Virus record (IMG/VR): IMGVR_UViG_3300031994_000020
From: a virus
Lineage: Duplodnaviria > Caudoviricetes
Direction: 5' to 3' (one strand)
DNA length: 64,000 nucleotides
Made by a program: the position numbers and the translations under genes
Shown: positions 3,401-47,555 of the stretch, piece after piece
How positions within the stretch are numbered: position 1 is the first letter of the stretch
Layout: every line of letters starts with the position of its first letter
The notes under the pieces: model-generated
Seen by the model: the letters and a program-made list of their open reading frames with translations, nothing else
What the model was told of the DNA's origin: nothing
The model's database searches: none

Positions 3401-4513
3401 TTAATATAAGTTGATACGATTTTTATAAAGGTCTAAAAAAATTTCTGGTGTTTTATCAATAGGTGAATCTTTATACCCTAATAAATTATTTTTATCCCAC
3501 ATAAAAGAAATAGTTATATATTTTCCATATTTTTTATGTATATTTTTTAAATTTTTTATAACTCTTTGTGCTTCTGCAGAAGATATATCTGTGAAGTCAT
3601 GATCAAGAGCAATAATAATTTCTTCCGCTCCTTGTTGAATTAAGAGCCAAGTCTGATAATTTATAAAACTAGATCCACATATTGCACAACTAATATCATT
3701 CTCTTCTCCAAAATAACTTCTGTATTTAAGGCAACTTTTTTCTGACTCAAATACAAATGCCTTCTTCATCTTTGCTATATTATTCTTACTATGATTAAGA
3801 TTATAGAGATTAAAACTTAAAGGATGGTTAAACATAGCTCCACCTATGAGTGCAGGACGATATTTGCCATATCTTTCTTCGTTCTCTAAAGCTAAAGCTC
3901 TTTCTCTAATCCCAACTAATCTATTATTTATATCTCTATGAGGAATAACAATCCCGCAGTTTTTCGGGTCAAAGCATATCTCTGCTGCCTTTATAACTTC
4001 TGGAGTAATACCTTCTGCTTCCCAAACTGCGATTCTTGGGTGCGGAAGATTGTTTAAAAACTTTCCATCATATTCTTTAAGTTCAACCTCTTGTGTATTT
4101 ATATTTATATTATTTATTCTATCATATCTATCAAGGAGAGTTAAGTCATCTTTAATATCTATTTCTTCTTCTTTTGTTTGAGTTGGCAAATAACCAAATC
4201 TTCTTGCTATATAATCAATAGCTTCTGGAAGATTCCATGCGGAATCCTCCCTAGGCTTCGGATGTTCTCGGCTCATGACCTTACGAGTTAGTTCAAAGAT
4301 ATCAAAAGTCTCACCACAGTCGGTATAACACTTGAACAAAGTAGTATTGGGATAGTAGTAGAGTTTATGACTCTGACCACAATGACACACAGTTTTAGAT
4401 ACTATTATCTCACCCCTCATCTCAGGCTCTGCATCAAAATCCATGAGAACTTCTTCTATTTGTTCAACTGTTAATTCATTCTTAATTTTATCTTTGTCAT
4501 ATTCGTAATTCAT
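3401..4513 (-). CDS. DNA primase (Zn-finger plus TOPRIM)
   Basis: CHC..H...C.TDCG zinc motif, FESEKS and ALDHD TOPRIM motifs; adjacent to the helicase. Confidence 0.8.
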   Translation of the reverse strand: MNYEYDKDKIKNELTVEQIEEVLMDFDAEPEMRGEIIVSKTVCHCGQSHKLYYYPNTTLFKCYTDCGETFDIFELTRKVMSREHPKPREDSAWNLPEAIDYIARRFGYLPTQTKEEEIDIKDDLTLLDRYDRINNININTQEVELKEYDGKFLNNLPHPRIAVWEAEGITPEVIKAAEICFDPKNCGIVIPHRDINNRLVGIRERALALENEERYGKYRPALIGGAMFNHPLSFNLYNLNHSKNNIAKMKKAFVFESEKSCLKYRSYFGEENDISCAICGSSFINYQTWLLIQQGAEEIIIALDHDFTDISSAEAQRVIKNLKNIHKKYGKYITISFMWDKNNLLGYKDSPIDKTPEIFLDLYKNRINLY

Positions 4514-4555
4514 TTACCATTACAACCTTTCTTGTTAGCTGTAGTTTAATAAAAA

Positions 4556-6103
4556 TTAAAATTGTGATTCATCCTGAATGTGTATTCTAAAATCTTCCAT
4601 TTCTACTAATTCATAATTCCATTTGGTAACGAACATAGGGTTTATTCTACATATACCTCTATCTGCTTTACACCAAAGATAAATACTTTTCCATCTTCCG
4701 CGTCTATTCTTATATACAGATATTTTTATATCCGGCATATCAAATCCGCCTTTAGCTATTATATCTTTTAAAGATTCTTTATCTTTCTGTGTGACTTCAA
4801 GCATTATCATACCCGCATCAATTTTATCTGCAATAGACTTTGCTCCTCTTAAAAGATTCTGATCCGGAGTTTCAGACTCTGTGTAATCTGAATTCAACTG
4901 TGTTGCAGATAAGATAAATACACCATACTGATTACATAAATCTTTTAATCTAATAGACATCATAAAGAGAATATTATCTTCGCGGAGACGCACCCCGCCG
5001 CTTCTTTTAGTTATCTCTTCAAGAATCTTCATACTTGTATGAATGTAATCAAGAAAGATATATTTTGTTCCATGCTCACGGATACCTCTAACAATAGTAT
5101 TCTCAATGTCTTTTAATGAGAAGTCTGGAAGCTGCTGAAAGAAGATAGGACTCTGTTTAATGAGTTGCTTTGCATGGACTACTCTTTCCCATTCTCCTTC
5201 AAAGTAAGTGCCGGTTAAGATATGTTCCTCATCTACCGCACTTAAAAATGCAACCATCATTGTTTGTATCTCTGTTAAATCTTGCTCTGTTGCTATATAC
5301 ATTACAGGTTCTGCTTTACCTGTGCTTATCCATTTCTTTTGTTCTTTATCATACATCTGATAACAACCTATGTAACATACATCTGCGGCGATGGCACGAG
5401 ACTTACCTACACCAGTTGCGGCAGATCTTAAGTAAAACTTCTTAAGACGAGCGCCACGTACCACTGTATTGATGTATGTGCCATAAAGCGGATACCCAAT
5501 CTCCGGAGTCTCCTTCAGTCCATCAATGTTCTCATCTATTCCTGCACCTGCCTGAATCCCGCACTCTACAAAATTGTCAATACACTCTGACTTAATTGAC
5601 ATAATCTTATCATCAATTAGCTGTGCAATATCAACAATAGATGTGTTATCAAGCCATTCTTCTTGCTCCTGTTTCTTCTTTGCATCAAAGATATTATCTG
5701 GATCATATAACCAAGATAAGTCCATTCCTACCACATCTTGATAAGAACGAAAAAATGTCATTTTTTTCATTCTATTGTAATAATAATCAAATGTAGTTAA
5801 TTTTGCATTTTCAGATGCTTTTAAAAGATACTCTACTCCCTTGTTTGTTTCAAATATAGCTTTCTTTTTAGGACGGGAGCTAAGATAATCATCAATCGCA
5901 TTAAGAGTTATTTCTGTTGCTCCTAATTGATGTAAATTAAAAAGACACTCAAAAACTATTTTGTGAAAATTATCCACAAAATCGTTTTCAGTGAAAAAAT
6001 ATTTATCAGTTGCTTCAAGCAACTTTGGATTTTTATATACATTCCCAATTACATTAGTTAATGCTGATATATCTATATATTTACTCATCTTCCACCTCGA
6101 CAT
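4556..6103 (-). CDS. dnaB: DnaB-like replicative helicase
   Basis: SAATGVGKS Walker A, IFLDYIH Walker B, SATQLN, KNRRG. Confidence 0.9.
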   Translation of the reverse strand: MSRWKMSKYIDISALTNVIGNVYKNPKLLEATDKYFFTENDFVDNFHKIVFECLFNLHQLGATEITLNAIDDYLSSRPKKKAIFETNKGVEYLLKASENAKLTTFDYYYNRMKKMTFFRSYQDVVGMDLSWLYDPDNIFDAKKKQEQEEWLDNTSIVDIAQLIDDKIMSIKSECIDNFVECGIQAGAGIDENIDGLKETPEIGYPLYGTYINTVVRGARLKKFYLRSAATGVGKSRAIAADVCYIGCYQMYDKEQKKWISTGKAEPVMYIATEQDLTEIQTMMVAFLSAVDEEHILTGTYFEGEWERVVHAKQLIKQSPIFFQQLPDFSLKDIENTIVRGIREHGTKYIFLDYIHTSMKILEEITKRSGGVRLREDNILFMMSIRLKDLCNQYGVFILSATQLNSDYTESETPDQNLLRGAKSIADKIDAGMIMLEVTQKDKESLKDIIAKGGFDMPDIKISVYKNRRGRWKSIYLWCKADRGICRINPMFVTKWNYELVEMEDFRIHIQDESQF

Positions 6104-6590
6104 TAAAGAATCGTTTTCGTAAAGTTATTTGCGGTATTGGGATGCTGATTTCTTTTACTTTAGAAGTAATCTCTTTAACATCCTTTTCTTGGTTTTGTAA
6201 ATTTGCTATATAAAGACTATAATAATAACGGTATGCGTCTTTATAAACAAAAGGTACAATGCCAATACCCCCATTAGCTTTCTCTCTGGAGTTTCCTTTT
6301 ACTTCATAAAAATATATCAGGCTTTTTAATATACCTGATAAAGTATAACCTTCAGCAACATAGTCTTTTATTTGTTTATTGACTCTTGCTTTGTTATAAT
6401 CTTCTCCTAAAAGCTGTTGGATATAATTTTCTAATTTTACTAAATCTTCATCTTTCTGAGGAAGTGGAACTATTTCTCCTTGCGGGAGACAGGTCTGATG
6501 TGCATAACGTCTAGCTCCAGATTTCACAGCTTGAATTTTGTCACGATCGAACCGAACGCCGCATACACTGCATATACAATAATGTGCCAT
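6081..6590 (-). CDS. Hypothetical Zn-binding protein in replication operon
   Basis: CSVC...HQTC N-terminus; overlaps dnaB start. Confidence 0.6.
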   Translation of the reverse strand: MAHYCICSVCGVRFDRDKIQAVKSGARRYAHQTCLPQGEIVPLPQKDEDLVKLENYIQQLLGEDYNKARVNKQIKDYVAEGYTLSGILKSLIYFYEVKGNSREKANGGIGIVPFVYKDAYRYYYSLYIANLQNQEKDVKEITSKVKEISIPIPQITLRKRFFNVEVEDE

Positions 6591-28449: not shown

Positions 28450-29700
28450 TTACTGATGATATTTGAGGAGGAACTCAGGGTCTACACATTTGAAGCTATC
28501 GGTTCCATCCTGAGAACGGAATACTATACCTTCACGCATACCGCCATCTATCTTAGATTTCTCTCCATGAACAAATGCACGAAGTTCATCTATAGTGTCA
28601 GGAAGTACATACTCTTCTGCAAGTATAGGTACAGAAGGTATATCAACTTCATCGAGCATCTTCTTCATTTCTACAGTTCCAACTCTCCCGGTATCAGAGA
28701 AGATAAGGTTAAAAGCACGAAGTTCGCGGTCTTTCATTCCATAATCTCTTTTCTGAACTCCTGCACCGAAGGTCTCCGCCTGTACAGTTACCCATTCCGC
28801 AGTAGGATGAAGCATAAGGAGCATTTCAAGTTTATCTCTCATGTTATACTTTGCGTTCATTTCTACCCATATGTTTCCTATGGTATTTGTGTAATAGTTA
28901 TTATTTTCTTTCTCAGGAGTATTGAATACTACATTTCTGCTACATACAAAGTACTCAGCCTTATGACCAAATTTTCCTCTACGAAGATGAAAAGTAGAAG
29001 ATGAGCCATCTATTTTTTCAGTCGCAACCCACTTTATAGTCTTATCTTCAAGAGTCCGAGGTCTGTTCTCTATACGCTCTTCGTCAGTTTTACGCACTTC
29101 CGCAGGCCAGTCCTTTACGACATTTCTTCCAAAGAAAGCAAGAAATATCCATCTAAAAAATTTATTTTTCTTTATAAGTTTGCCATATTTCTTTGCTATT
29201 TTAGGATGTCTCTGAAGTGCGGCATTTATTTTCGCATCAGGATTGATTTTTGCTTTTCTCTTGTTATCCTCTTCAACAGAGTAAGTTACACCAAGATATT
29301 CAGTAAGGAAATCTCCTTCTGCAAAATAAGGAAAATTCTTATCTTTAGTTATCATTACAGGACCATCTCCTGCAAACTGACCTACAGGACCGAGTTCCCA
29401 ACCGAAAGCCTCTGCGGGAAGTGCAAGTCCCTGAGATATTACCTTAAACTTACCAAGCTTCATAGTCTTTACTTTATAATGCTTTGCAGCAAGAAACTCA
29501 GACCAATCCCGCTCAGGAAGTTTAGAGTCTATTTCAAAATAGACTGCAAGGTCACCTTCATGGAACTCTCCCTTTTTAGCTATACAAGTCCATCCATTTA
29601 CACCTACAAGCTCTATATTATCAGCGCCTTCAATAGGGCGAACCCACCCTATTTTAGCTACATATGCAAGTTCTCTTTGTCCAGTTTTAGGATTAAGCAT
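28450..29700 (-). CDS. ATP-dependent RNA ligase, DRB0094-like
   Basis: N-terminal PIEGADNIE OB-like domain, TEKIDGSS motif I, REGIVF, SFKCV. Confidence 0.9.
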   Translation of the reverse strand: MLNPKTGQRELAYVAKIGWVRPIEGADNIELVGVNGWTCIAKKGEFHEGDLAVYFEIDSKLPERDWSEFLAAKHYKVKTMKLGKFKVISQGLALPAEAFGWELGPVGQFAGDGPVMITKDKNFPYFAEGDFLTEYLGVTYSVEEDNKRKAKINPDAKINAALQRHPKIAKKYGKLIKKNKFFRWIFLAFFGRNVVKDWPAEVRKTDEERIENRPRTLEDKTIKWVATEKIDGSSSTFHLRRGKFGHKAEYFVCSRNVVFNTPEKENNNYYTNTIGNIWVEMNAKYNMRDKLEMLLMLHPTAEWVTVQAETFGAGVQKRDYGMKDRELRAFNLIFSDTGRVGTVEMKKMLDEVDIPSVPILAEEYVLPDTIDELRAFVHGEKSKIDGGMREGIVFRSQDGTDSFKCVDPEFLLKYHQ

Positions 29701-32866: not shown

Positions 32867-34378
32867 TTATGCAGTTATGGCTTCGTATCTCTTACTGAGA
32901 AGTTTCTGAAGACAGAGTTCCCAGCCAGTCACACCAGTTATAACATTTTCAAAGATTACAGGTGAAGCACCACTTACGTAGGTTACACTTTCATCTTCAT
33001 CGAGGATTGTATTTTCTCTCGCCTGTACGTTCCAATAAATGAGCTTAGGCATCTTGTGACCGTGGCGTGCCCACTTCTCACGAACCTTAGCCATTTCTGT
33101 AGCTACAGGACGATTCTTATGTCTCCAACCATATGAGGTTCCCCAATCAGACATAGCATCAATTTCCATGTCAGAAATGACAACTATTTTCTCAGGTATA
33201 TCTTCTTCTTTTGTAGTAGGACGATCTGCTATTTCAAGAAGCATATCAAAAGTTCTTGTAAGGTCAGTATTCTCACAGAGGTTGGTTCTGTAGATACGTT
33301 CAACCTTATCAACGAAATCTGTTCCTCTTATCTCAATAAGCTGAGGTCTTGAGCTGAAGCTAATGTAGTGATTCTTAAAAGGACCTCCTGCTCTCTCAGC
33401 ACAGTACATACCAAGAGAGATAGCTATATTGATAGGAGCAGATGCTTCGTTACCGGTCATAGAACCTGAAGTATCTACAACGCAAAGCATATTGGACTGT
33501 TTTCCATTGAAATAATCCTTCTGATTATCCCAGTATTTCTCTATCATGGCTCTATCGGTTTCAGAAAGAGAAAAACTACTATTCCAATAGTCCATATGGC
33601 TTGTAGCCTTAGCCACGATCTCATAAGGATAGAGAGTAGCAGCATTTACAGTTGTACTTTCGCTCTTTGCAAACTCTTCATACTTCTTTGCTATGATGTC
33701 ACGTCTAGCAAATGCGTTCTTGTATATAAGTCCAGCCTTAGAGGGAATCTTATCAAATTCAATTTCATCCCATCTGTTTTCAGACATAAGTTTCTCTACT
33801 ATATTAATGCGGGCGCGCAGGTCTGAGAGAATTTTTCTATACTGTTTATGTGTAAGACCAAGGTAGTCCCGCACTTTATTACCCATAGCTATTGTTTCCT
33901 TAGAAGATGCGTTCTCTGAAGGAAGCCACTTTGCAAGTAAAGAAGGAGTCTTGCTTTCAAGATCAATAGCAAGCTGTTCCTTGATGAAATCAAGTGCATC
34001 CTTTTCAACCTTTGTGCCAAAGCAAGCATATACTACGTCATCCCAACGTCTATACTCAGGTATCTGCTTTATGAGTTTGCGGGCTACATTAGCGTACTTA
34101 TTAGCAAGCCAATTAAAGCATATTCTAAAATAGCGGCGTTCACCCTGACCACCACGACAGTCACCAAGATAAAAGAGGCACTTAAGAGCGAGATCTGCAT
34201 TTTCCTCATATGCTTCCTTGAAAAGCAGTATACAGTCCTCATTAGTTCTTGAACGATATGCTCCACCAAAAGCAAACATATCATAGACCTTCTTCATTGT
34301 TGAAGAAAGGGCTGTTCCTCCATTCTCAGTGAGCTTGTAATTTGCATCATTCTTCATTTCATTTAAAAAAGCGTTCAT
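32867..34378 (-). CDS. DUF2828-family (TROVE/Ro60-like helical plus vWA) protein
   Basis: LTENG, GQGERR, RWDD, AKWLPSE, VDTSGSM MIDAS, ISDMEID, IYWNV. Confidence 0.85.
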   Translation of the reverse strand: MNAFLNEMKNDANYKLTENGGTALSSTMKKVYDMFAFGGAYRSRTNEDCILLFKEAYEENADLALKCLFYLGDCRGGQGERRYFRICFNWLANKYANVARKLIKQIPEYRRWDDVVYACFGTKVEKDALDFIKEQLAIDLESKTPSLLAKWLPSENASSKETIAMGNKVRDYLGLTHKQYRKILSDLRARINIVEKLMSENRWDEIEFDKIPSKAGLIYKNAFARRDIIAKKYEEFAKSESTTVNAATLYPYEIVAKATSHMDYWNSSFSLSETDRAMIEKYWDNQKDYFNGKQSNMLCVVDTSGSMTGNEASAPINIAISLGMYCAERAGGPFKNHYISFSSRPQLIEIRGTDFVDKVERIYRTNLCENTDLTRTFDMLLEIADRPTTKEEDIPEKIVVISDMEIDAMSDWGTSYGWRHKNRPVATEMAKVREKWARHGHKMPKLIYWNVQARENTILDEDESVTYVSGASPVIFENVITGVTGWELCLQKLLSKRYEAITA

Positions 34379-35100: not shown

Positions 35101-35191
35101 AGGGCAAGAAAAAGATTTTCATAATTTATAGTTTTCTTTACAAAGTTATAATTTTCTTCTTTATAAGACTTGAAAATTTGCTGTTTGCCCT
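35101..35191 (-). ncRNA. ACAGCAA stem RNA 1
   Basis: AGGGCAA-ACAGCAA...TTGCCCT. Confidence 0.65.
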
Positions 35192-38553: not shown

Positions 38554-38626
38554 AAGACACGCTACTATCTTTATCATTCTATAATATTGGCTGAATGTGA
38601 ATTAAAATTTTTGCTGTTTGTGTCTT
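38554..38626 (-). ncRNA. ACAGCAA stem RNA 2
   Basis: AAGACACAA-ACAGCAA...GTGTCTT, directly downstream of a promoter. Confidence 0.7.
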
Positions 38627-43135: not shown

Positions 43136-43891
43136 TCAGAAATAAGTATCTAATACTTGAGTTATTGCTATATTTATTTGCTGATCGGTATAATCATTTG
43201 CCGCATCAATTTGTGTATCAACATAACTCTTACTTACTTTATTTCCTAATTCTGTATTGACTTTAGAACTTGACCATACTTTACTAACATCAACAGAAGT
43301 ATCATCTATTTCTGCTGCAACAGCTACTGCATCTGTTATATAATATGTTGTTCCATTAAGTTTCTCTGATGCGGGAAGTGCGTCGTACTGAGCTTTGGTC
43401 AACTCCATTGAAGGATCTTGACGTTGAGGTACCCATTGAGTACCATCCCATAAATAAAAAATCCCATCTGCAATACAATAATACATTTTTCTATCAGCAG
43501 AAGTGAATCTAGGTGGAAGATCCTCTTCAGTAGCGACTATATCATAGTTACCATCGGGACTACCTATTTCATTCCATTTTGTATCATCAAAAACCATATC
43601 TTGGTTTTCTCTTATACAACGATAAAAACAAGAAGCATATATAGCCAAATCACCATACTTATAAGTATCTCCCGCAGTCCATTCATAAATAGGAGTACCA
43701 TCATTTACAAAAGCTTGACTTTCTCTTGTTTCCCCTTCATCATTCTTCTACTCGAATGTAATTATTGATTGACCATCTTGTTTAGTTATGGATTTTACTT
43801 TACATGGTGCGCCTTTAAGACCGCCAAATTGAGCCGCAGTTTCATCTGTGTACTTTTTGGCAAGCGCATAAGCTGTAACTGATAATCCCAT
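43136..43891 (-). CDS. Tail-fibre-like protein, read through TAG 43748-43750
   Basis: MGLSVTAYALAKKYTD...ITFE(TAG)KNDEG...FYLWDGTQW...LTKAQYDAL...KVWSSSKV. Confidence 0.7.
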
Positions 43892-44076: not shown

Positions 44077-44295
44077 AGTTTTGCCCTCCTTTATAGTTCT
44101 ACAATATATAAAAAAATGCGGGAAATGAATATCCTATTTTGCCCTAAAAAAATTCCAAACACCTATTTTGTTCCCGGTAGCCCGATCGCTTGCCGCCCAG
44201 CAGATTATTTTTCCTTAAACTAAATAAACGCCGAAGATATAAAATCTTCGGCAAATAAAAAAGCCCCAATGAACTTAATCATCAAAGCTCCCCTA

Positions 44296-44390: not shown

Positions 44391-44498
44391 AAGACTTCCA
44401 TATTTGAGCCGGGGACTGGATTCGAACCAGTATCTTCTAATTTTGTTAGATGCACTACCTTTATACTACCCTGGAAATTATTTTGCTGATGAAGTCTT
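44391..44498 (-). ncRNA. ACAGCAA-type stem RNA 3 enclosing a tRNA-like cloverleaf with a 5-nt anticodon loop
   Basis: AAGACTTCA-TCAGCAA...GAAGTCTT; cargo TCTAA-CAAAA-TTAGA and ACTGG-TTCGAAT-CCAGT. Confidence 0.7.
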
Positions 44499-44501
44499 TA
44501 A

Positions 44502-44596: not shown

Positions 44597-44662
44597 TAAG
44601 CACATTATTAGGTATATTGATTAAAAGTCAATGCCATATTTAAAATTTGCTGTATGTGCTTA
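44597..44662 (-). ncRNA. ACAGCAA stem RNA 4 displaying a tRNA-Lys(UUU) anticodon stem-loop
   Basis: TAAGCACAT-ACAGCAA...ATTGA-CTTTTAA-TCAAT...ATGTGCTTA. Confidence 0.75.
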
Positions 44663-44665
44663 AAG

Positions 44666-44747
44666 TGGGCAGGGCTGGACTCGAACCAGCGAAGGCTTGC
44701 GCCAATGGGTTTACAGCCCACCGCAATTGCCACTATGCGACCTACCC
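44666..44747 (-). tRNA. tRNA-Tyr(GTA)
   Basis: GTGGG-CTGTAAA-CCCAT, long variable arm. Confidence 0.92.
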
Positions 44748-44873
44748 ATATGCCGTGCGGAACGGAAGCTAAGTCGACTCGAACAGACCACGGCTATCTT
44801 ATATTATTGAGGTTTTTATATAAGACTTAAGTCGATTTTACTAGAGTTAACCTCAATACCTCTAGAGCGATAG

Positions 44874-44991
44874 ACGGAAGGACGAGACTCGAACTCGTAT
44901 CATCAGGCCCCCTAAGCATTATAATAATTGCTGTACAAGAATATATCTAATCTCTTTTATATACTGCGCTCTACCATTAAGCTACCTTCCG
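44874..44991 (-). ncRNA. tRNA body whose anticodon loop is replaced by an ACAGCAA module (RNA 5)
   Basis: CGGAAGG/CCTTCCG acceptor, normal D and T arms, insert ...AAGAGATTAGATATATTCTTGT-ACAGCAA... Confidence 0.7.
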
Positions 44992-44993
44992 CG

Positions 44994-45085
44994 CAGGAGC
45001 TGTAGGACTCGAACCCACACCCGAGGCTTTGGACACCTCTGTCCCGGTTTTAGAGACCGGTGTGCTGCCATTACACCAAGCTCCC
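44994..45085 (-). tRNA. Amber suppressor tRNA(CUA) derived from tRNA-Trp, with a 25-nt variable arm
   Basis: CCGGT-CTCTAAA-ACCGG (anticodon at 45051-45053); acceptor GGGAGCT/AGCTCCT-G73; T-arm identical to the neighbouring tRNA-Trp. Confidence 0.93.
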
Positions 45086-45094
45086 AATTAATAG

Positions 45095-45165
45095 CAGGAG
45101 TTGTAGGACTCGAACCCACCTCTCTGGTTTTGGAGACCAGGGCACAACCCCTATACCAAACTCCC
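45095..45165 (-). tRNA. tRNA-Trp(CCA)
   Basis: CTGGT-CTCCAAA-ACCAG; acceptor GGGAGTT/AACTCCT-G73. Confidence 0.92.
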
Positions 45166-45171
45166 ATAATC

Positions 45172-45281
45172 AAGACACTATATAAGTTTGGATTCGAACC
45201 AAAATCTTTAAACTTTTACATCTAATATTCTACCTTTAAACTACTCTCCCTTTGCGGAAGCAACATCGCTGTTAGTGTCTT
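45172..45281 (-). ncRNA. ACAGCAA-type stem RNA 6 enclosing a degenerate tRNA
   Basis: AAGACACTA-ACAGCGA...TAGTGTCTT; cargo with D-like arm and TTTGG-TTCGAAT-CCAAA. Confidence 0.7.
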
Positions 45282-45445
45282 AATAATAACGGCTCAACCC
45301 GTTTTGCAGAGGATCCCCTCTGGAGTTCCCCGGCTTCTGATTTTCACAAGTACCAGGTGGTGGACCAGGAATCATAGCTACTCAAGAACTAGGCTCCGCG
45401 CGCGGTTGTTTTACTAATTCAATTTTACTATGTTCAGCCACTTTA

Positions 45446-45516
45446 GGTGCCTAGTGGGAATTGAACCCACATATGCGGTACCACAAACCGCTGTTCTACC
45501 ATTAAACTATAGACAC
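45446..45516 (-). tRNA. tRNA-His(GTG)
   Basis: GCGGT-TTGTGGT-ACCGC, C73. Confidence 0.9.
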
Positions 45517-45518
45517 AG

Positions 45519-45591
45519 TACCCAAAGTAGGATTCGAACCTACAAAAACTACGTCCTTAGCGCAGTGCGTATGCCATTCCGCCATTTGGGC
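45519..45591 (-). tRNA. tRNA-Leu(AAG), short variable loop
   Basis: CTGCG-CTAAGGA-CGTAG, Leu-type D-arm, A73. Confidence 0.8.
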
Positions 45592-45672
45592 TTATCAGCG
45601 CCTTTCTTAACCTGTCCGAAAACAGAGGTTCCTTCACTGGCAGTCCGAAAACTTCAGAGGGCTTATTTTTAG

Positions 45673-45755
45673 TGCGGGAGGCGGGATTCGAACCCGCACG
45701 GAGTCACCTCCGGGGGATTTTAAGTCCCCTGCGGCTACCTTTACGCCACTCCCGC
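45673..45755 (-). tRNA. tRNA-Leu(TAA)
   Basis: GGGGA-CTTAAAA-TCCCC, long variable arm. Confidence 0.92.
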
Positions 45756-46002
45756 ATATATCTTAACTAGACCACTCGCATCCCACCATCTTGTTTTAAA
45801 ATCAATTAGAGGTATAACGATTAAAATCTCCCTCTCTTATCATTTAATCATATGCCTAAGCCTTGTCCGTCTGTTAAGAAATAGTAAGTGCGGAAGATTA
45901 ACCGCCTCCCGCCGCGGATCCATGTATTATTTCTCCCCAGGACATTTGGGATACTGTGAATTGATTATATAGAAACCCCGAAAGGAGGACTATATTCATT
46001 TC

Positions 46003-46116
46003 AAAGCACCTTTTTTCTTTGCCCTACCTACTAGGCGATCTGCGCTAAAGTGGCGCGCGGAGCTGGACTCGAACCAGCGAAACGAGAATTAATCTCCAAT
46101 TTGCTGTAGGTGCTTT
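46003..46116 (-). ncRNA. ACAGCAA stem RNA 7 enclosing a circularly permuted tRNA (YrlA-like topology)
   Basis: AAAGCACCT-ACAGCAA...T-arm GCTGG-TTCGAGT-CCAGC, TCCGCGC-GCCA, loop, GCGCAGA, D-arm...AGGTGCTTT. Confidence 0.8.
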
Positions 46117-46118
46117 AA

Positions 46119-46189
46119 TAGCGGATGCGGGATTCGAACCCGCGTCTTCTGCGTATGAGGCAGACAAGGAACCGCTCCTCTAATCCGCG
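46119..46189 (-). tRNA. tRNA-Met(CAT), initiator-like C1 mismatch
   Basis: TCTGC-CTCATAC-GCAGA; C1 opposite U72. Confidence 0.8.
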
Positions 46190-46262
46190 ATAATATGGGC
46201 GTTTGTTTCAAGGCGGACACCCAGCCGCCAGAAAAGAGGGGAAACGAATATTGACAAACTAA

Positions 46263-46961: not shown

Positions 46962-47133
46962 CAACTAGTTATTATCATTCAGGTGGTAGGTATTTCAGAC
47001 TCTCACCGTTATTGATTAGCCTACTCTTTTATTTATCGGATTTCTGTCAACCCTATTATTTTTTATTGCTTTCTTAACTTTCTATAAATATTATATCATA
47101 TTTTTTTATAAAAGTCAAATATGATTTTTAAAC

Positions 47134-47197
47134 TAAGCACAGTGTTTTGCATTTATAATCCCAAATTATACGCTAAAAAGATTGCTGTATGTGCTTA
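47134..47197 (-). ncRNA. ACAGCAA stem RNA 8 displaying a tRNA-Pro(UGG) anticodon stem-loop
   Basis: TAAGCACAT-ACAGCAA...TATAA-TTTGGGA-TTATA...TGTGCTTA. Confidence 0.72.
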
Positions 47198-47482: not shown

Positions 47483-47555
47483 TTCTCATTCTGGGAATCG
47501 AACCCAGTCTCCAACCCTCTTTAGGGTCGGGTGCTTCCCATCACACTCAATGAGA
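47483..47555 (-). ncRNA. tRNA-like RNA with an 8-bp anticodon arm capped by a tetraloop
   Basis: TCTCATT/AATGAGA acceptor, CCGACCCT-AAAG-AGGGTTGG, CTGGG-TTCGATT-CCCAG. Confidence 0.65.

What the first reader, a model, noticed from the sequence alone, without database searches (positions are those of the whole stretch)
44874..46116. Two circular permutations of the same tRNA-plus-handle RNA
Seen: at 46003-46116 the order is handle, T-arm, 3' acceptor strand with GCCA, short loop, 5' acceptor strand, D-arm, closing stem. At 44874-44991 a normally ordered tRNA has its anticodon loop replaced by a closed stem followed by ACAGCAA. Both place the handle where the anticodon would be. Established: T-arm before D-arm with a looped acceptor is the YrlA Y-RNA topology. 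Inference: the 3D shape, not the linear order, is under selection.
Basis: partly seen in the sequence, partly recalled or inferred. Interest (0 to 1): 0.75.

Follow-up and report, generated by a model that had tools for sequence, protein, structure and literature searches.

The report
Two rotated tRNA-shaped phage Y-like RNAs
Two small RNA genes in a gut phage's tRNA cluster are tRNA-shaped bodies carrying the same short "handle", wired in two different linear orders; both orders recur next to a Ro60-like protein gene in many phages, so this looks like an uncatalogued relative of the Ro60/Y-RNA particle.

Summary
Both elements are real, lie on the minus strand and are far beyond chance.

- **Permuted form, 46003-46116:** handle stem, ACAGCAA, small hairpin, T arm, 3' acceptor strand with GCCA, 5-nt loop, 5' acceptor strand, D arm, handle stem.
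- **Normal-order form, 44874-44991:** a tRNA body with a weak hairpin plus ACAGCAA between the D arm and T arm.
- **Model scores:** covariance models built only from other phages score them 80.8 and 77.6 bits. Ordinary tRNAs in the window score 38 bits or less.
- **Spread:** both wirings are common in IMG/VR phage contigs. All four helices covary, and the tRNA 15-48 tertiary pair covaries in both wirings.
- **Link to DUF2828:** 38 of 80 independently sampled DUF2828 gene neighbourhoods hold one, always on the gene's strand. The window's DUF2828 protein (32867-34378) folds like Ro60.
- **Syntenic relative:** it keeps the permuted RNA with four compensatory changes but no CCA. It has a plain tRNA-Phe(GAA) where 44874 lies.

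The best reading is Y-RNA-like tRNA mimics in two circular permutations. Binding to DUF2828 and the function are inferred, not shown. No Rfam family or paper covers this, but this scan has already met the same system in over 100 genomes.

The parts
46003..46116 (-). Permuted tRNA-like handle RNA (class A), whole gene
   Evidence: Fold. Class A model R2 scores it 80.8 bits, E 1.6e-14. Rfam YrlA gives 25.2 bits, below threshold.
46108..46116 (-). Handle: 5' strand of the closing stem (AAAGCACCU)
   Evidence: Pairs with 46003-46011. The stem is identical in ortholog L337:9001-9108. Across the family all 7 stem pairs covary.
46101..46107 (-). Handle: unpaired ACAGCAA motif
   Evidence: Invariant in the RNA-selected family alignments. 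The ortholog has GCAGCAA.
46084..46096 (-). Small hairpin in the variable-arm position (GAGA-UUAAU-UCUC)
   Evidence: In the L337 ortholog one G-C pair is replaced by U-A.
46062..46078 (-). T arm (GCUGG-UUCGAGU-CCAGC)
   Evidence: Near-identical to the T arm of tRNA-Tyr at 44665-44747.
46039..46061 (-). Looped acceptor stem: 3' strand UCCGCGC, then GCCA, loop CUUUA, 5' strand GCGCAGA
   Evidence: The ortholog has three compensatory pairs, keeps the A.C mismatch, has a UUUU loop and no CCA.
46021..46036 (-). D arm (GCCU-AGUAGGUA-GGGC)
   Evidence: G15 pairs with C48 (Levitt pair), read from the sequence and consistent.
46003..46011 (-). Handle: 3' strand of the closing stem (AGGUGCUUU)
44874..44991 (-). 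Normal-order tRNA body with internal handle (class B), whole gene
   Evidence: Rfam tRNA 45.9 bits with a 57-nt insert. Class B model R1 scores it 77.6 bits, E 1.5e-15. ARAGORN in intron mode calls it tRNA-Phe(AAA) with a 34-nt insert at position 37/38.
44937..44956 (-). Closed handle hairpin (AAGAG, 10-nt loop, UUCUU); weak
   Evidence: Read from the sequence. The R1 alignment shows 4 of 6 canonical pairs in the family register.
44928..44934 (-). ACAGCAA motif, 2 nt after the hairpin
44968..44991 (-). 5' acceptor strand CGGAAGG, U8 A9, D arm GCUU-AAUGGUA-GAGC
44874..44898 (-). T arm ACGAG-UUCGAGU-CUCGU, 3' acceptor strand CCUUCCG, discriminator U; no encoded CCA
   Evidence: A15-U48 Levitt pair read from the sequence.
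32867..34378 (-). DUF2828 + DUF7788/vWA protein, the candidate protein partner (Ro60-like fold)
   Evidence: Pfam. AlphaFold2 model with pLDDT 86.4. The top 11 Foldseek hits are all Ro60, E 3e-8 to 3e-6, TM up to 0.59.
44597..44662 (-). Sibling handle RNA, cargo is a hairpin (AAGCACAU / AUGUGCUU)
   Evidence: R2 scores it 26.5 bits.
47134..47197 (-). Sibling handle RNA (AAGCACA / UGUGCUU)
   Evidence: R2 scores it 23.7 bits.
44391..44500 (-). Sibling handle RNA whose cargo is a whole tRNA-like body (44406-44475)
   Evidence: The ortholog in L337 carries tRNA-Cys as cargo.
45172..45285 (-). Sibling handle RNA (AAGACACUA / UAGUGUCUU, motif ACAGCGA) with a weak tRNA-like cargo
   Evidence: R2 scores it 15.2 bits.
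38554..38626 (-). Sibling handle RNA (AAGACAC / GUGUCUU)
   Evidence: R2 scores it 26.8 bits.
35101..35190 (-). Sibling handle RNA (AGGGCAA / UUGCCCU), 0.7 kb upstream of the DUF2828 gene
47090..47118 (-). Strong sigma-70-like promoter upstream of the array that holds both RNAs
   Evidence: Matches 11 of 12 positions with an extended TG. Consensus match only.
44229..44253 (-). Terminator-like hairpin after the last tRNA of the array
   Evidence: Consensus match only.

Best explanation
Both loci are genes for small non-coding RNAs of one widespread phage family. They are probably co-transcribed with the tRNA array and cut out by the tRNA-processing enzymes.

Each RNA joins two modules:
- a tRNA-like body with acceptor stem, D arm, T arm and an intact elbow and core;
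- a 'handle', a 5-9 bp helix of free sequence followed by single-stranded ACAGCAA, which projects from the anticodon end.

In 46003-46116 the RNA ends lie in the handle helix and the acceptor stem is capped by a loop. This is the YrlA-like, permuted wiring. In 44874-44991 the RNA ends lie in the acceptor stem and the handle helix is capped by a loop. This is the normal tRNA wiring. The two are circular permutations of one architecture.

The handle is most likely the docking site for the phage's Ro60-like ring protein (DUF2828-vWA, 32867-34378). The tRNA body then acts as the effector or decoy module, as in Rsr/YrlA particles. The particle most likely works in RNA surveillance, repair or anti-nuclease conflict over tRNAs.

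Shown here: the structures, their covariation, the family, the linkage to the DUF2828 gene, and the protein's predicted fold. Inferred: transcription and processing, protein binding (about 0.6), and the biological role (below 0.4 for any single role).
For: 1. **Membership.** Models built without any window sequence score 46003 at 80.8 bits and 44874 at 77.6 bits. The best other hit in the window scores 38 bits.
2. **Family and covariation.** An IMG/VR pattern scan gave 50 distinct permuted and about 22 normal-order examples.
   - On an unfitted MAFFT alignment of 38 permuted members, 92.3% of cells are paired against 63.3% in shuffles.
   - 252 cells carry double changes against 70 in shuffles.
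   - The covariation score is 0.727 against 0.208 in shuffles and 0.14 or less when the partners are slid.
   - A closing stem of 7 bp or more occurs in 48 of 58 permuted hits against 49 of 290 decoy anchors.
3. **Tertiary fold.** The Levitt pair 15-48 covaries in both wirings, and U8 and A14 are near-invariant.
4. **Ortholog.** L337:9001-9108 keeps the stem, motif and closed acceptor with four compensatory changes.
5. **Partner.**
   - 35 of 117 loci found through the RNA hold a DUF2828 gene, often within 0.1-0.5 kb.
   - In 80 loci found through the protein alone, 38 hold a strong class A or class B hit, and every hit is on the gene's strand.
   - The DUF2828 model matches Ro60 structures over its full length.
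6. **Both wirings co-occur** in other contigs as well: L192 and L284.
7. **Context.** An RNA ligase gene, a tmRNA and a suppressor tRNA lie in the same region.
Against: - No expression, end-mapping or binding data exist.
- Here DUF2828 lies 10.5-11.6 kb from the two RNAs, not next to them.
- The handle hairpin of 44874 is weak and lacks the conserved AAG/CUU ends seen in other normal-order members.
- The syntenic relative has a plain tRNA-Phe at that position. So 44874 is a recent and perhaps unstable acquisition.
- The family samples used for covariation were pre-selected for paired stems by my own script.
- tRNA arrays are usually co-oriented with neighbouring genes, so the strand agreement alone is weak evidence.
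- Rfam YrlA does not reach its threshold (25.2 against 69 bits).
- DUF2828 shows no sequence-level match to solved Ro60 structures.
Confidence: 0.72

Rival explanations
1. 44874-44991 is a decoding tRNA-Phe gene interrupted by a short intron at position 37/38. The intron is spliced out, and the ACAGCAA match is incidental or part of the intron's own signals.
For: - ARAGORN in intron mode calls tRNA-Phe(AAA) with a 34-nt insert at the canonical 37/38 site. Removing the insert leaves a 5-bp stem, AGUAU / AUGCU.
- The syntenic relative has tRNA-Phe(GAA) at the same position, with a similar acceptor stem and the same U73.
- Another tRNA in the window carries a large insert with an endonuclease ORF.
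Against: - The resulting anticodon AAA is not a normal bacterial decoder, and a 16-nt extra region would remain.
- There is no room for a group I core, no bulge-helix-bulge motif was seen, and no splicing endonuclease gene was seen.
- The insert is the family handle at the family position, worth about 40 bits more than any ordinary tRNA.
- The same insert type is conserved beside DUF2828 genes in 22 of 80 independent loci. Conserved sequence inside an intron is not expected.
Confidence: 0.06
2. 46003-46116 is a dead relic or a search artefact of two adjacent tRNA genes: the T arm and 3' end of one, then the 5' end and D arm of the next. It has no function of its own.
For: - Its T arm plus the CUUUA spacer is almost identical to the 3' end and trailer of tRNA-Tyr.
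- It carries an encoded GCCA.
- Chen et al. 2014 warn that dimeric tRNAs mimic YrlA.
- A real Trp/CUA tRNA dimer in the window gives a partial hit of 38 bits.
Against: - The two acceptor strands are complementary to each other.
- A perfect 9-bp handle stem plus ACAGCAA encloses the unit.
- It scores 80.8 bits full length against 38 bits partial for the true dimer.
- The ortholog keeps the closed acceptor through three compensatory pairs and has replaced the CCA-containing loop by UUUU. That means purifying selection acts on the hairpin, not decay.
Confidence: 0.03
3. The handle is real, but it is not a DUF2828 docking site. It is either a processing or stability signal of the tRNA operon (a nuclease or RNase P/Z guide), or the site for a different protein. 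Its link to DUF2828 would then be indirect, because both travel with tRNA arrays.
For: - Handle RNAs start 1-4 nt after tRNA 3' ends in at least four cases.
- The two RNAs studied lie over 10 kb from the DUF2828 gene.
- Dictyostelid Class I RNAs, described with a very similar layout (AAG start, 6-bp covarying stem, adjacent conserved 11-nt motif, CUGU end), bind an RRM protein, Rnp1A (PMC7919456).
- No binding test was possible.
Against: - In many loci the RNAs directly abut the DUF2828 gene even where no long tRNA array was fetched.
- DUF2828 has the fold of the one protein family known to bind terminal-stem RNAs with tRNA-like cargo.
- A pure processing signal would not need to be kept as a closed hairpin inside a tRNA body.
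Confidence: 0.17

Closest known systems
YrlA-type Y RNAs with Rsr/Ro60 in bacteria and mycobacteriophages (Rfam RF02553; Chen et al. 2014, PMC4201824); phage phiLo Ro60 with Yrl1/Yrl2 (PMC12135203)
   Same: - A terminal stem formed by the RNA ends encloses a tRNA-like module in the order V, T arm, looped acceptor, D arm.
- The tRNA tertiary nucleotides are kept, including the 15-48 Levitt covariation.
- The genes lie on the same strand as, and near, a Ro60-fold protein gene.
- Some members carry or acquire a CCA at the acceptor.
   Different: - The protein is DUF2828+DUF7788, not a Pfam TROVE protein. It matches Ro60 only at fold level.
- The conserved single-stranded motif is ACAGCAA, not GNCGAAN0-1G.
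- The Rfam model scores only 25.2 bits against a threshold of 69.
- There are many paralogous RNAs per genome with swappable cargo.
- A second, normal-order wiring exists (44874), which the YrlA paper read here (Chen et al. 2014) does not describe.
Class I RNAs of dictyostelid amoebae (Kjellin et al. 2021, PMC7919456; Rfam RF01414)
   Same: According to the paper's text:
- the RNA starts with AAG;
- a short stem joins the ends, with covarying sequence;
- a conserved, unpaired 11-nt motif sits directly 3' of the 5' stem strand, with U, C, C, A, A fixed at positions 3, 6, 9, 10, 11;
- the 3' end is C-U-G-U;
- the interior is variable.

The phage handles read (A/U)AG-stem-ACAGCAA ... stem-CU(U/A)G or -CUGU.
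   Different: - No Rfam hit to RF01414 here, even at E up to 10 on a 91-nt search.
- The motif letters could not be read from the paper's text (it sits in figures). My recollection that it ends in ACAGCAA is unverified.
- The known Class I partner is an RRM protein.
- Class I RNAs carry no tRNA bodies.
Circularly permuted tRNA genes of red and green algae (from my own knowledge of Soma et al. 2007; not read here)
   Same: The 3' half of a tRNA is encoded upstream of the 5' half. The acceptor strands are joined by a short linker directly after the CCA position.
   Different: - The algal genes give decoding tRNAs after circularisation at a bulge-helix-bulge site.
- Here no anticodon loop would be restored and no bulge-helix-bulge motif was seen.
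- The ortholog has no CCA.
Canonical tRNA (Rfam RF00005)
   Same: 44874 passes the Rfam tRNA threshold (45.9 bits against 29). It has a 7-bp acceptor stem plus D and T arms. It probably descends from a tRNA-Phe gene.
   Different: It has no 7-nt anticodon loop. About 57 nt lie where 11 are expected. ARAGORN rejects it unless an intron is allowed.

Membership tests
YrlA (Rfam RF02553) | Terminal stem enclosing V, T arm, looped acceptor-like stem and D arm, in that order | tested here: met
   46003-46116. Order as described in PMC4201824. 44874 does not have this order.
YrlA (Rfam RF02553) | Reaches the Rfam gathering score (69 bits) | tested here: not met
   25.2 bits, full-length alignment, E 0.01-0.12.
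YrlA (Rfam RF02553) | Conserved GNCGAAN0-1G motif | tested here: not met
   No CGAA occurs in the 114-nt sequence outside the T-loop context (UUCGAG). ACAGCAA sits directly 3' of the closing stem's 5' strand.
YrlA (Rfam RF02553) | Encoded within about 4 kb of, and on the same strand as, a TROVE-domain Ro60 gene | tested here: not met
   There is no TROVE hit. The nearest Ro60-fold gene (DUF2828) is on the same strand but 11.6 kb away. Family-wide, the RNAs do abut DUF2828 genes.
YrlA (Rfam RF02553) | Bound by Ro60/Rsr in vivo | not testable with these tools
   Needs immunoprecipitation or gel shift.
Handle-tagged tRNA mimics, permuted wiring (uncatalogued; model R2) | 7-9 bp closing stem, 0-3 nt, ACAGCAA, T arm, closed 7-bp acceptor, D arm, spacer, closing stem | tested here: met
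   46003-46116 scores 80.8 bits with a model that excludes it.
Handle-tagged tRNA mimics, normal-order wiring (uncatalogued; model R1) | Open 7-bp acceptor, D arm, spacer, closed 5-8 bp hairpin, 0-3 nt, ACAGCAA, variable region, T arm | tested here: met
   44874-44991 scores 77.6 bits with a model that excludes it. The hairpin is only partly canonical.
Handle-tagged tRNA mimics (both wirings) | Conserved (A/U)AG ... CU(U/A)G ends of the handle helix | tested here: inconclusive
   46003 has AAAG...CUUUG, which fits. The hairpin apex of 44874 lacks the AAG/CUU signature seen in other normal-order members.
Decoding tRNA (RF00005 / ARAGORN) | Cloverleaf with a 5-bp anticodon stem and 7-nt loop | tested here: not met
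   ARAGORN default mode finds neither element. 44874 is called only with a 34-nt intron and the odd anticodon AAA.
Permuted tRNA genes (algal type) | Circularisation at a bulge-helix-bulge junction restores a normal anticodon arm | tested here: not met
   Joining the ends of 46003 would give a closed 9-bp helix next to ACAGCAA, not an anticodon stem-loop (read). No bulge-helix-bulge motif was seen.
Dictyostelid Class I RNA (RF01414) | Match to the Rfam covariance model | tested here: not met
   No hit at E up to 5 over 16 kb, or E up to 10 over 91 nt around the minimal sibling 44597-44662.
Ro60 / TROVE protein (for the partner) | HEAT-repeat ring plus vWA domain fold | tested here: met
   AlphaFold2 pLDDT 86.4, pTM 0.87. 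Foldseek ranks 1-11 are all Ro60, over about 560 aligned columns. Sequence level: Pfam gives DUF2828+DUF7788 with no TROVE hit, and there is no PDB phmmer hit.

The most novel reading that the evidence does not exclude
The two gene wirings may be two routes to one mature RNA form. The ends of the permuted precursor (46003 type) would be ligated at the handle helix by the phage RNA ligase. The resulting circle would then be opened at the acceptor by RNase P and 3' trimming down to the encoded CCA. That would give a normal-order, possibly chargeable, tRNA body with a closed handle hairpin, which is the 44874 type. It would be a phage version of the algal permuted-tRNA pathway feeding a Ro60-like particle.

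Hints for:
- GCCA sits exactly at the acceptor 3' end here, and NCCA does so in 13 of about 30 independently sampled permuted members.
- An RNA ligase gene lies nearby.
- Normal-order hairpin tips read like joined permuted ends, CU(U/A)G-N-(A/U)AG.

Against:
- The ortholog in the relative has a UUUU loop and no CCA.
Probability: 0.07. Interest if true: 0.85.

Novelty: new variant of a known kind. Interest (0 to 1): 0.7.

Why it matters
If the reading holds, phages carry a large class of Y-RNA-like particles that is not in Rfam and that I found in no paper. The class has three unusual properties:
- a Ro60-fold protein that Pfam files as a domain of unknown function;
- a tiny modular RNA handle;
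- tRNA-shaped cargo attached in either of two circular permutations.

This is a natural experiment showing that selection acts on the three-dimensional tRNA body plus the handle geometry, not on strand connectivity.

It makes two open questions testable in tractable phages. DUF2828 homologues occur in Felix O1-type, Listeria, Bacillus and cluster L mycobacteriophage records.
- What are the tRNA-like domains of Y RNAs for?
- What do Ro60-type rings do during infection, for example in conflicts over tRNA cleavage and repair?

The handle is also a candidate compact, portable protein-docking tag for RNA engineering.

Tried and rejected
- **Exact 26-mer of 46003 in IMG/VR:** no match.
- **Relatives via the 170-aa ORF at 43136-43648:** five loci at about 60% identity, none with tRNAs nearby.
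- **Distant relatives of this phage (IMG/VR 3300045988 contigs):** they hold five handle RNAs, but only with AT-rich cargo. They have no counterpart of either element.
- **Own genome:** not held.
- **Walking 20 kb upstream of the DUF2828 gene on the 145-kb contig of P0007:** dense coding sequence, no second array. That record cannot be searched whole.
- **An extra 'outer' helix enclosing the handle in normal-order members:** not enriched over shuffles. For 44874 the AGUAU / AUGCU pairing stays optional.
- **Rfam at permissive thresholds:** only the sub-threshold YrlA hit, and no Class I (RF01414) hit.
- **Search for the recalled Class I motif string in papers:** no hit.
- **PDB sequence search with DUF2828:** no Ro60 hit. 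Only the fold search shows the relation.
- **Folding of neighbouring unannotated spacers (44748-44873, 45592-45671, 45300-45445):** no stability beyond shuffles.
- **Complex prediction:** not used, because it does not take RNA.
Full report
**Setting.**
- The window carries two minus-strand tRNA arrays, at 34.9-38.5 kb and 44.3-48.6 kb. They hold 22 tRNAs, a tmRNA and a CUA suppressor tRNA.
- Phage-type genes surround them: an RNA ligase, a homing endonuclease and a glycosyltransferase.
- Strong sigma-70-like promoters (the nearest at 47118-47090) and a terminator-like hairpin (44253-44229) bracket the stretch that holds both elements. These are consensus matches only.

**The observation, 46003-46116.**
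- a 9-bp closing stem;
- ACAGCAA;
- a 4-bp hairpin;
- a T arm;
- a 3' acceptor strand followed by GCCA;
- a 5-nt loop;
- a 5' acceptor strand (6 of 7 pairs);
- a D arm, an A-rich spacer and the 3' strand of the closing stem.

The fold is more stable than shuffles (z = -2.3).

**The observation, 44874-44991.**
- Rfam scores it as a tRNA at 45.9 bits, with 57 nt where the model expects 11 nt of the anticodon arm.
- ARAGORN misses it by default. In intron mode it calls a tRNA-Phe(AAA) with a 34-nt insert at position 37/38.
- The insert holds a weak hairpin (AAGAG / UUCUU), two bases, then ACAGCAA.
- The whole RNA is not more stable than shuffles (z = -0.26). On its own this element would not be convincing.

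**The handle is a family feature.**
- The 10-mer UACAGCAAWU occurs four times exactly in the window, all on the minus strand.
- At least six further small elements between tRNAs share a 7-9 bp closing stem of differing, mutually compensating sequence followed by (A)CAGC(A/G)A.
- Several of them begin 1-4 nt after a tRNA 3' end. That suggests release by the tRNA-processing enzymes. This is an inference.

**Comparative evidence.** I scanned IMG/VR for ACAGCAA, 12-40 nt, a T-loop and CCA. Sorting the matches by script gave:
- 50 distinct sequences with the full permuted architecture;
- about 22 with the normal-order architecture: open acceptor, D arm, spacer, closed hairpin, ACAGCAA, variable region, T arm, acceptor, CCA.

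So both wirings are common and occur in many unrelated contigs. Two contigs hold both, L192 and L284.

*Closing stem.* A closing stem of 7 bp or more is present in 48 of 58 permuted hits against 49 of 290 decoy anchors.

*Covariation.* This was counted on an unfitted MAFFT alignment of 38 permuted members:
- 92.3% of cells pair, against 63.3% in shuffles.
- 252 cells carry changes on both sides, against 70 in shuffles.
- The covariation score is 0.727, against 0.208 in shuffles and 0.14 or less when the partners are slid.
- All pairs of the closing stem, acceptor and D stem, and 3 of 5 T-stem pairs, show compensatory changes.

Caveat: my script pre-selected sequences with paired closing and acceptor stems. 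The percentage paired is therefore partly built in. The diversity of pair types and the decoy control are not.

**Membership tests.** I built two covariance models that exclude the window.
- The permuted model (R2) hits 46003-46116 end to end at 80.8 bits. The next hit, 38 bits and partial, is the genuine Trp/CUA tRNA dimer, which is the known artefact type. The sibling handle RNAs follow at 15-27 bits.
- The normal-order model (R1) scores 44874-44991 at 77.6 bits, against 36 bits or less for every ordinary tRNA in the window.

The roughly 40 extra bits for 44874 come from the handle region. In that alignment ACAGCAAU matches exactly, and 4 of 6 hairpin pairs are canonical.

**Is the three-dimensional tRNA shape selected?**
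- U8 and A14 are near-invariant in both classes.
- The tertiary Levitt pair 15-48 covaries in both. In the permuted class 31 of 38 are G-C or A-U (18.5 expected if independent). In the normal-order class 16 of 18 are (9.3 expected).
- In the permuted class these two positions lie on opposite sides of the rotated join.
- The window's elements obey the rule: G15-C48 in 46003 and A15-U48 in 44874.
- Both keep the D-loop GG and a UUCGAGU T-loop.

**Orthologs.** A syntenic contig, L337, was found through the M28-like neighbour at 68% identity. It has the same tRNA order.

Directly after tRNA-Met it holds the ortholog of 46003 (57.6 bits). Compared with the window copy:
- the closing stem is identical;
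- the motif is GCAGCAA;
- one G-C pair of the small hairpin is U-A;
- three acceptor pairs are changed on both sides;
- the single A.C mismatch is retained;
- the loop is UUUU, with no CCA.

So the closed acceptor hairpin is under selection and the encoded CCA is not. In an independent sample, NCCA follows the acceptor in 13 of about 30 permuted members.

At the position of 44874, directly after the CUA suppressor tRNA, L337 has an ordinary tRNA-Phe(GAA) with a similar acceptor stem and the same U73. The normal-order model finds no handle-bearing tRNA in L337. Hence 44874 most likely arose recently, when a tRNA-Phe gene was converted. The window shows no other tRNA-Phe(GAA).

**The partner.**
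- The ORF at 32867-34378 is DUF2828+DUF7788/vWA.
- It has thousands of homologues, found in 709 phage records. Some mycobacteriophage records annotate them 'Ro-like RNA binding protein'.
- Sequence search against solved structures finds nothing.
- A confident AlphaFold2 model (pLDDT 86.4) matches Ro60 from frog, human, Deinococcus and Thermus phage phiLo as its top 11 Foldseek hits. These have E 3e-8 to 3e-6 and TM up to 0.59, over about 560 aligned columns.
- 35 of the 117 RNA-selected loci contain a DUF2828 gene, often 0.1-0.5 kb from the RNA.
- In 80 loci selected through the protein alone, the permuted model finds 42 hits and the normal-order model finds 170 hits, ordinary tRNAs included. 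Every hit is on the gene's strand. Counting only strong hits, 18 loci hold a permuted member and 22 a normal-order member, which makes 38 of 80 loci in all.

Binding itself is untested.

**Comparison with known systems.**
- *YrlA/Rsr.* The permuted element works like YrlA (PMC4201824), but it fails three membership features. Its Rfam score is 25.2 bits against 69. It lacks the GNCGAA motif. It has no TROVE-annotated neighbour.
- *Normal-order wiring.* It is absent from the YrlA paper I read (Chen et al. 2014) and from Rfam. Earlier notes of this scan describe it in other genomes, and in one giant virus with a true Ro60.
- *Dictyostelid Class I RNAs.* The handle resembles the published description of these RNAs (PMC7919456). 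The Rfam Class I model does not match here, and I could not verify the motif letters.
- *Literature.* My searches found no paper on DUF2828-associated RNAs.

**Earlier notes of this scan.** The scan has already reported the handle/DUF2828 system in over 100 genomes, and the circular-permutation reading in several. I treated those notes as leads. I re-derived the family, the linkage and the fold independently here.

**Verdict.**
- Function and binding remain inferred.
- Relative to public knowledge, this is a new variant of the Ro60/Y-RNA kind.

Noticed in passing
window 44391-44500 (-) and L337:10896-11009: The sibling handle RNA between the two tRNA-Ser genes carries a whole tRNA-like cargo. 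In the relative the cargo is tRNA-Cys(GCA). In the window the anticodon loop has become A-rich (ACAAAAU, called Phe-AAA). The scaffold is kept and the anticodon loop is not.
   Followed up: partly
window 44597-44662 (-): A minimal sibling handle RNA whose cargo is a 5-bp stem with loop CUUUUAA, the shape of a tRNA-Lys(UUU) anticodon arm. Another first-reader note also flagged it.
   Followed up: no
L301 (IMGVR_UViG_3300045988_146757, 146,601 bp), 4453-4706 and 5001-6533: This contig has exactly the length recorded for the window's own longest contig. It carries a second DUF2828 paralogue (37% identity) with two normal-order handle tRNA mimics directly upstream (74.8 and 63.8 bits). A DNA search of the record with the window's array region (44600-46200) gave only one weak 49-nt match. 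Whether it is the same genome is unproven.
   Followed up: partly
window 45048-45119 (-): The adjacent tRNA-Trp and CUA suppressor tRNA are tandem paralogues with complementary acceptor strands. They give a partial 38-bit 'permuted' pseudo-hit. This shows how a tandem duplication plus truncation could create the permuted wiring.
   Followed up: partly
window 44748-44873 (-): The spacer between 44874 and tRNA-Tyr has nested inverted repeats (a 10-bp UUGAGGUU.../...AACCUCAA helix) and a T-loop-like GUUCGAGUC. Its folding energy is no better than shuffles (z = -0.38).
   Followed up: partly
window 47483-47555 (-): A tRNA-like gene that ARAGORN reads with a four-base anticodon (AAAG). Rfam tRNA scores it 36 bits.
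   Followed up: no
window 45251-45445 and 45756-46002 (-): Two long gene-free stretches inside the tRNA array, with GC-rich hairpins (for example 45890-45912). They match nothing in Rfam at E up to 5.
   Followed up: no
L302, L304, L306, L317, L286 (IMG/VR DUF2828 loci): Normal-order handle tRNA mimics occur as tandem arrays of three to five copies directly before or after the DUF2828 gene.
   Followed up: no
window 28450-29700 (-); L254:14283-17821: An RNA ligase (PHA02142 OB fold plus RNA_ligase) lies a few kb from the DUF2828 gene. In the relative, a KTI12/AAA_33 kinase-like gene and metallophosphatase genes lie there too. Together these form an RNA-repair-type gene neighbourhood.
   Followed up: no
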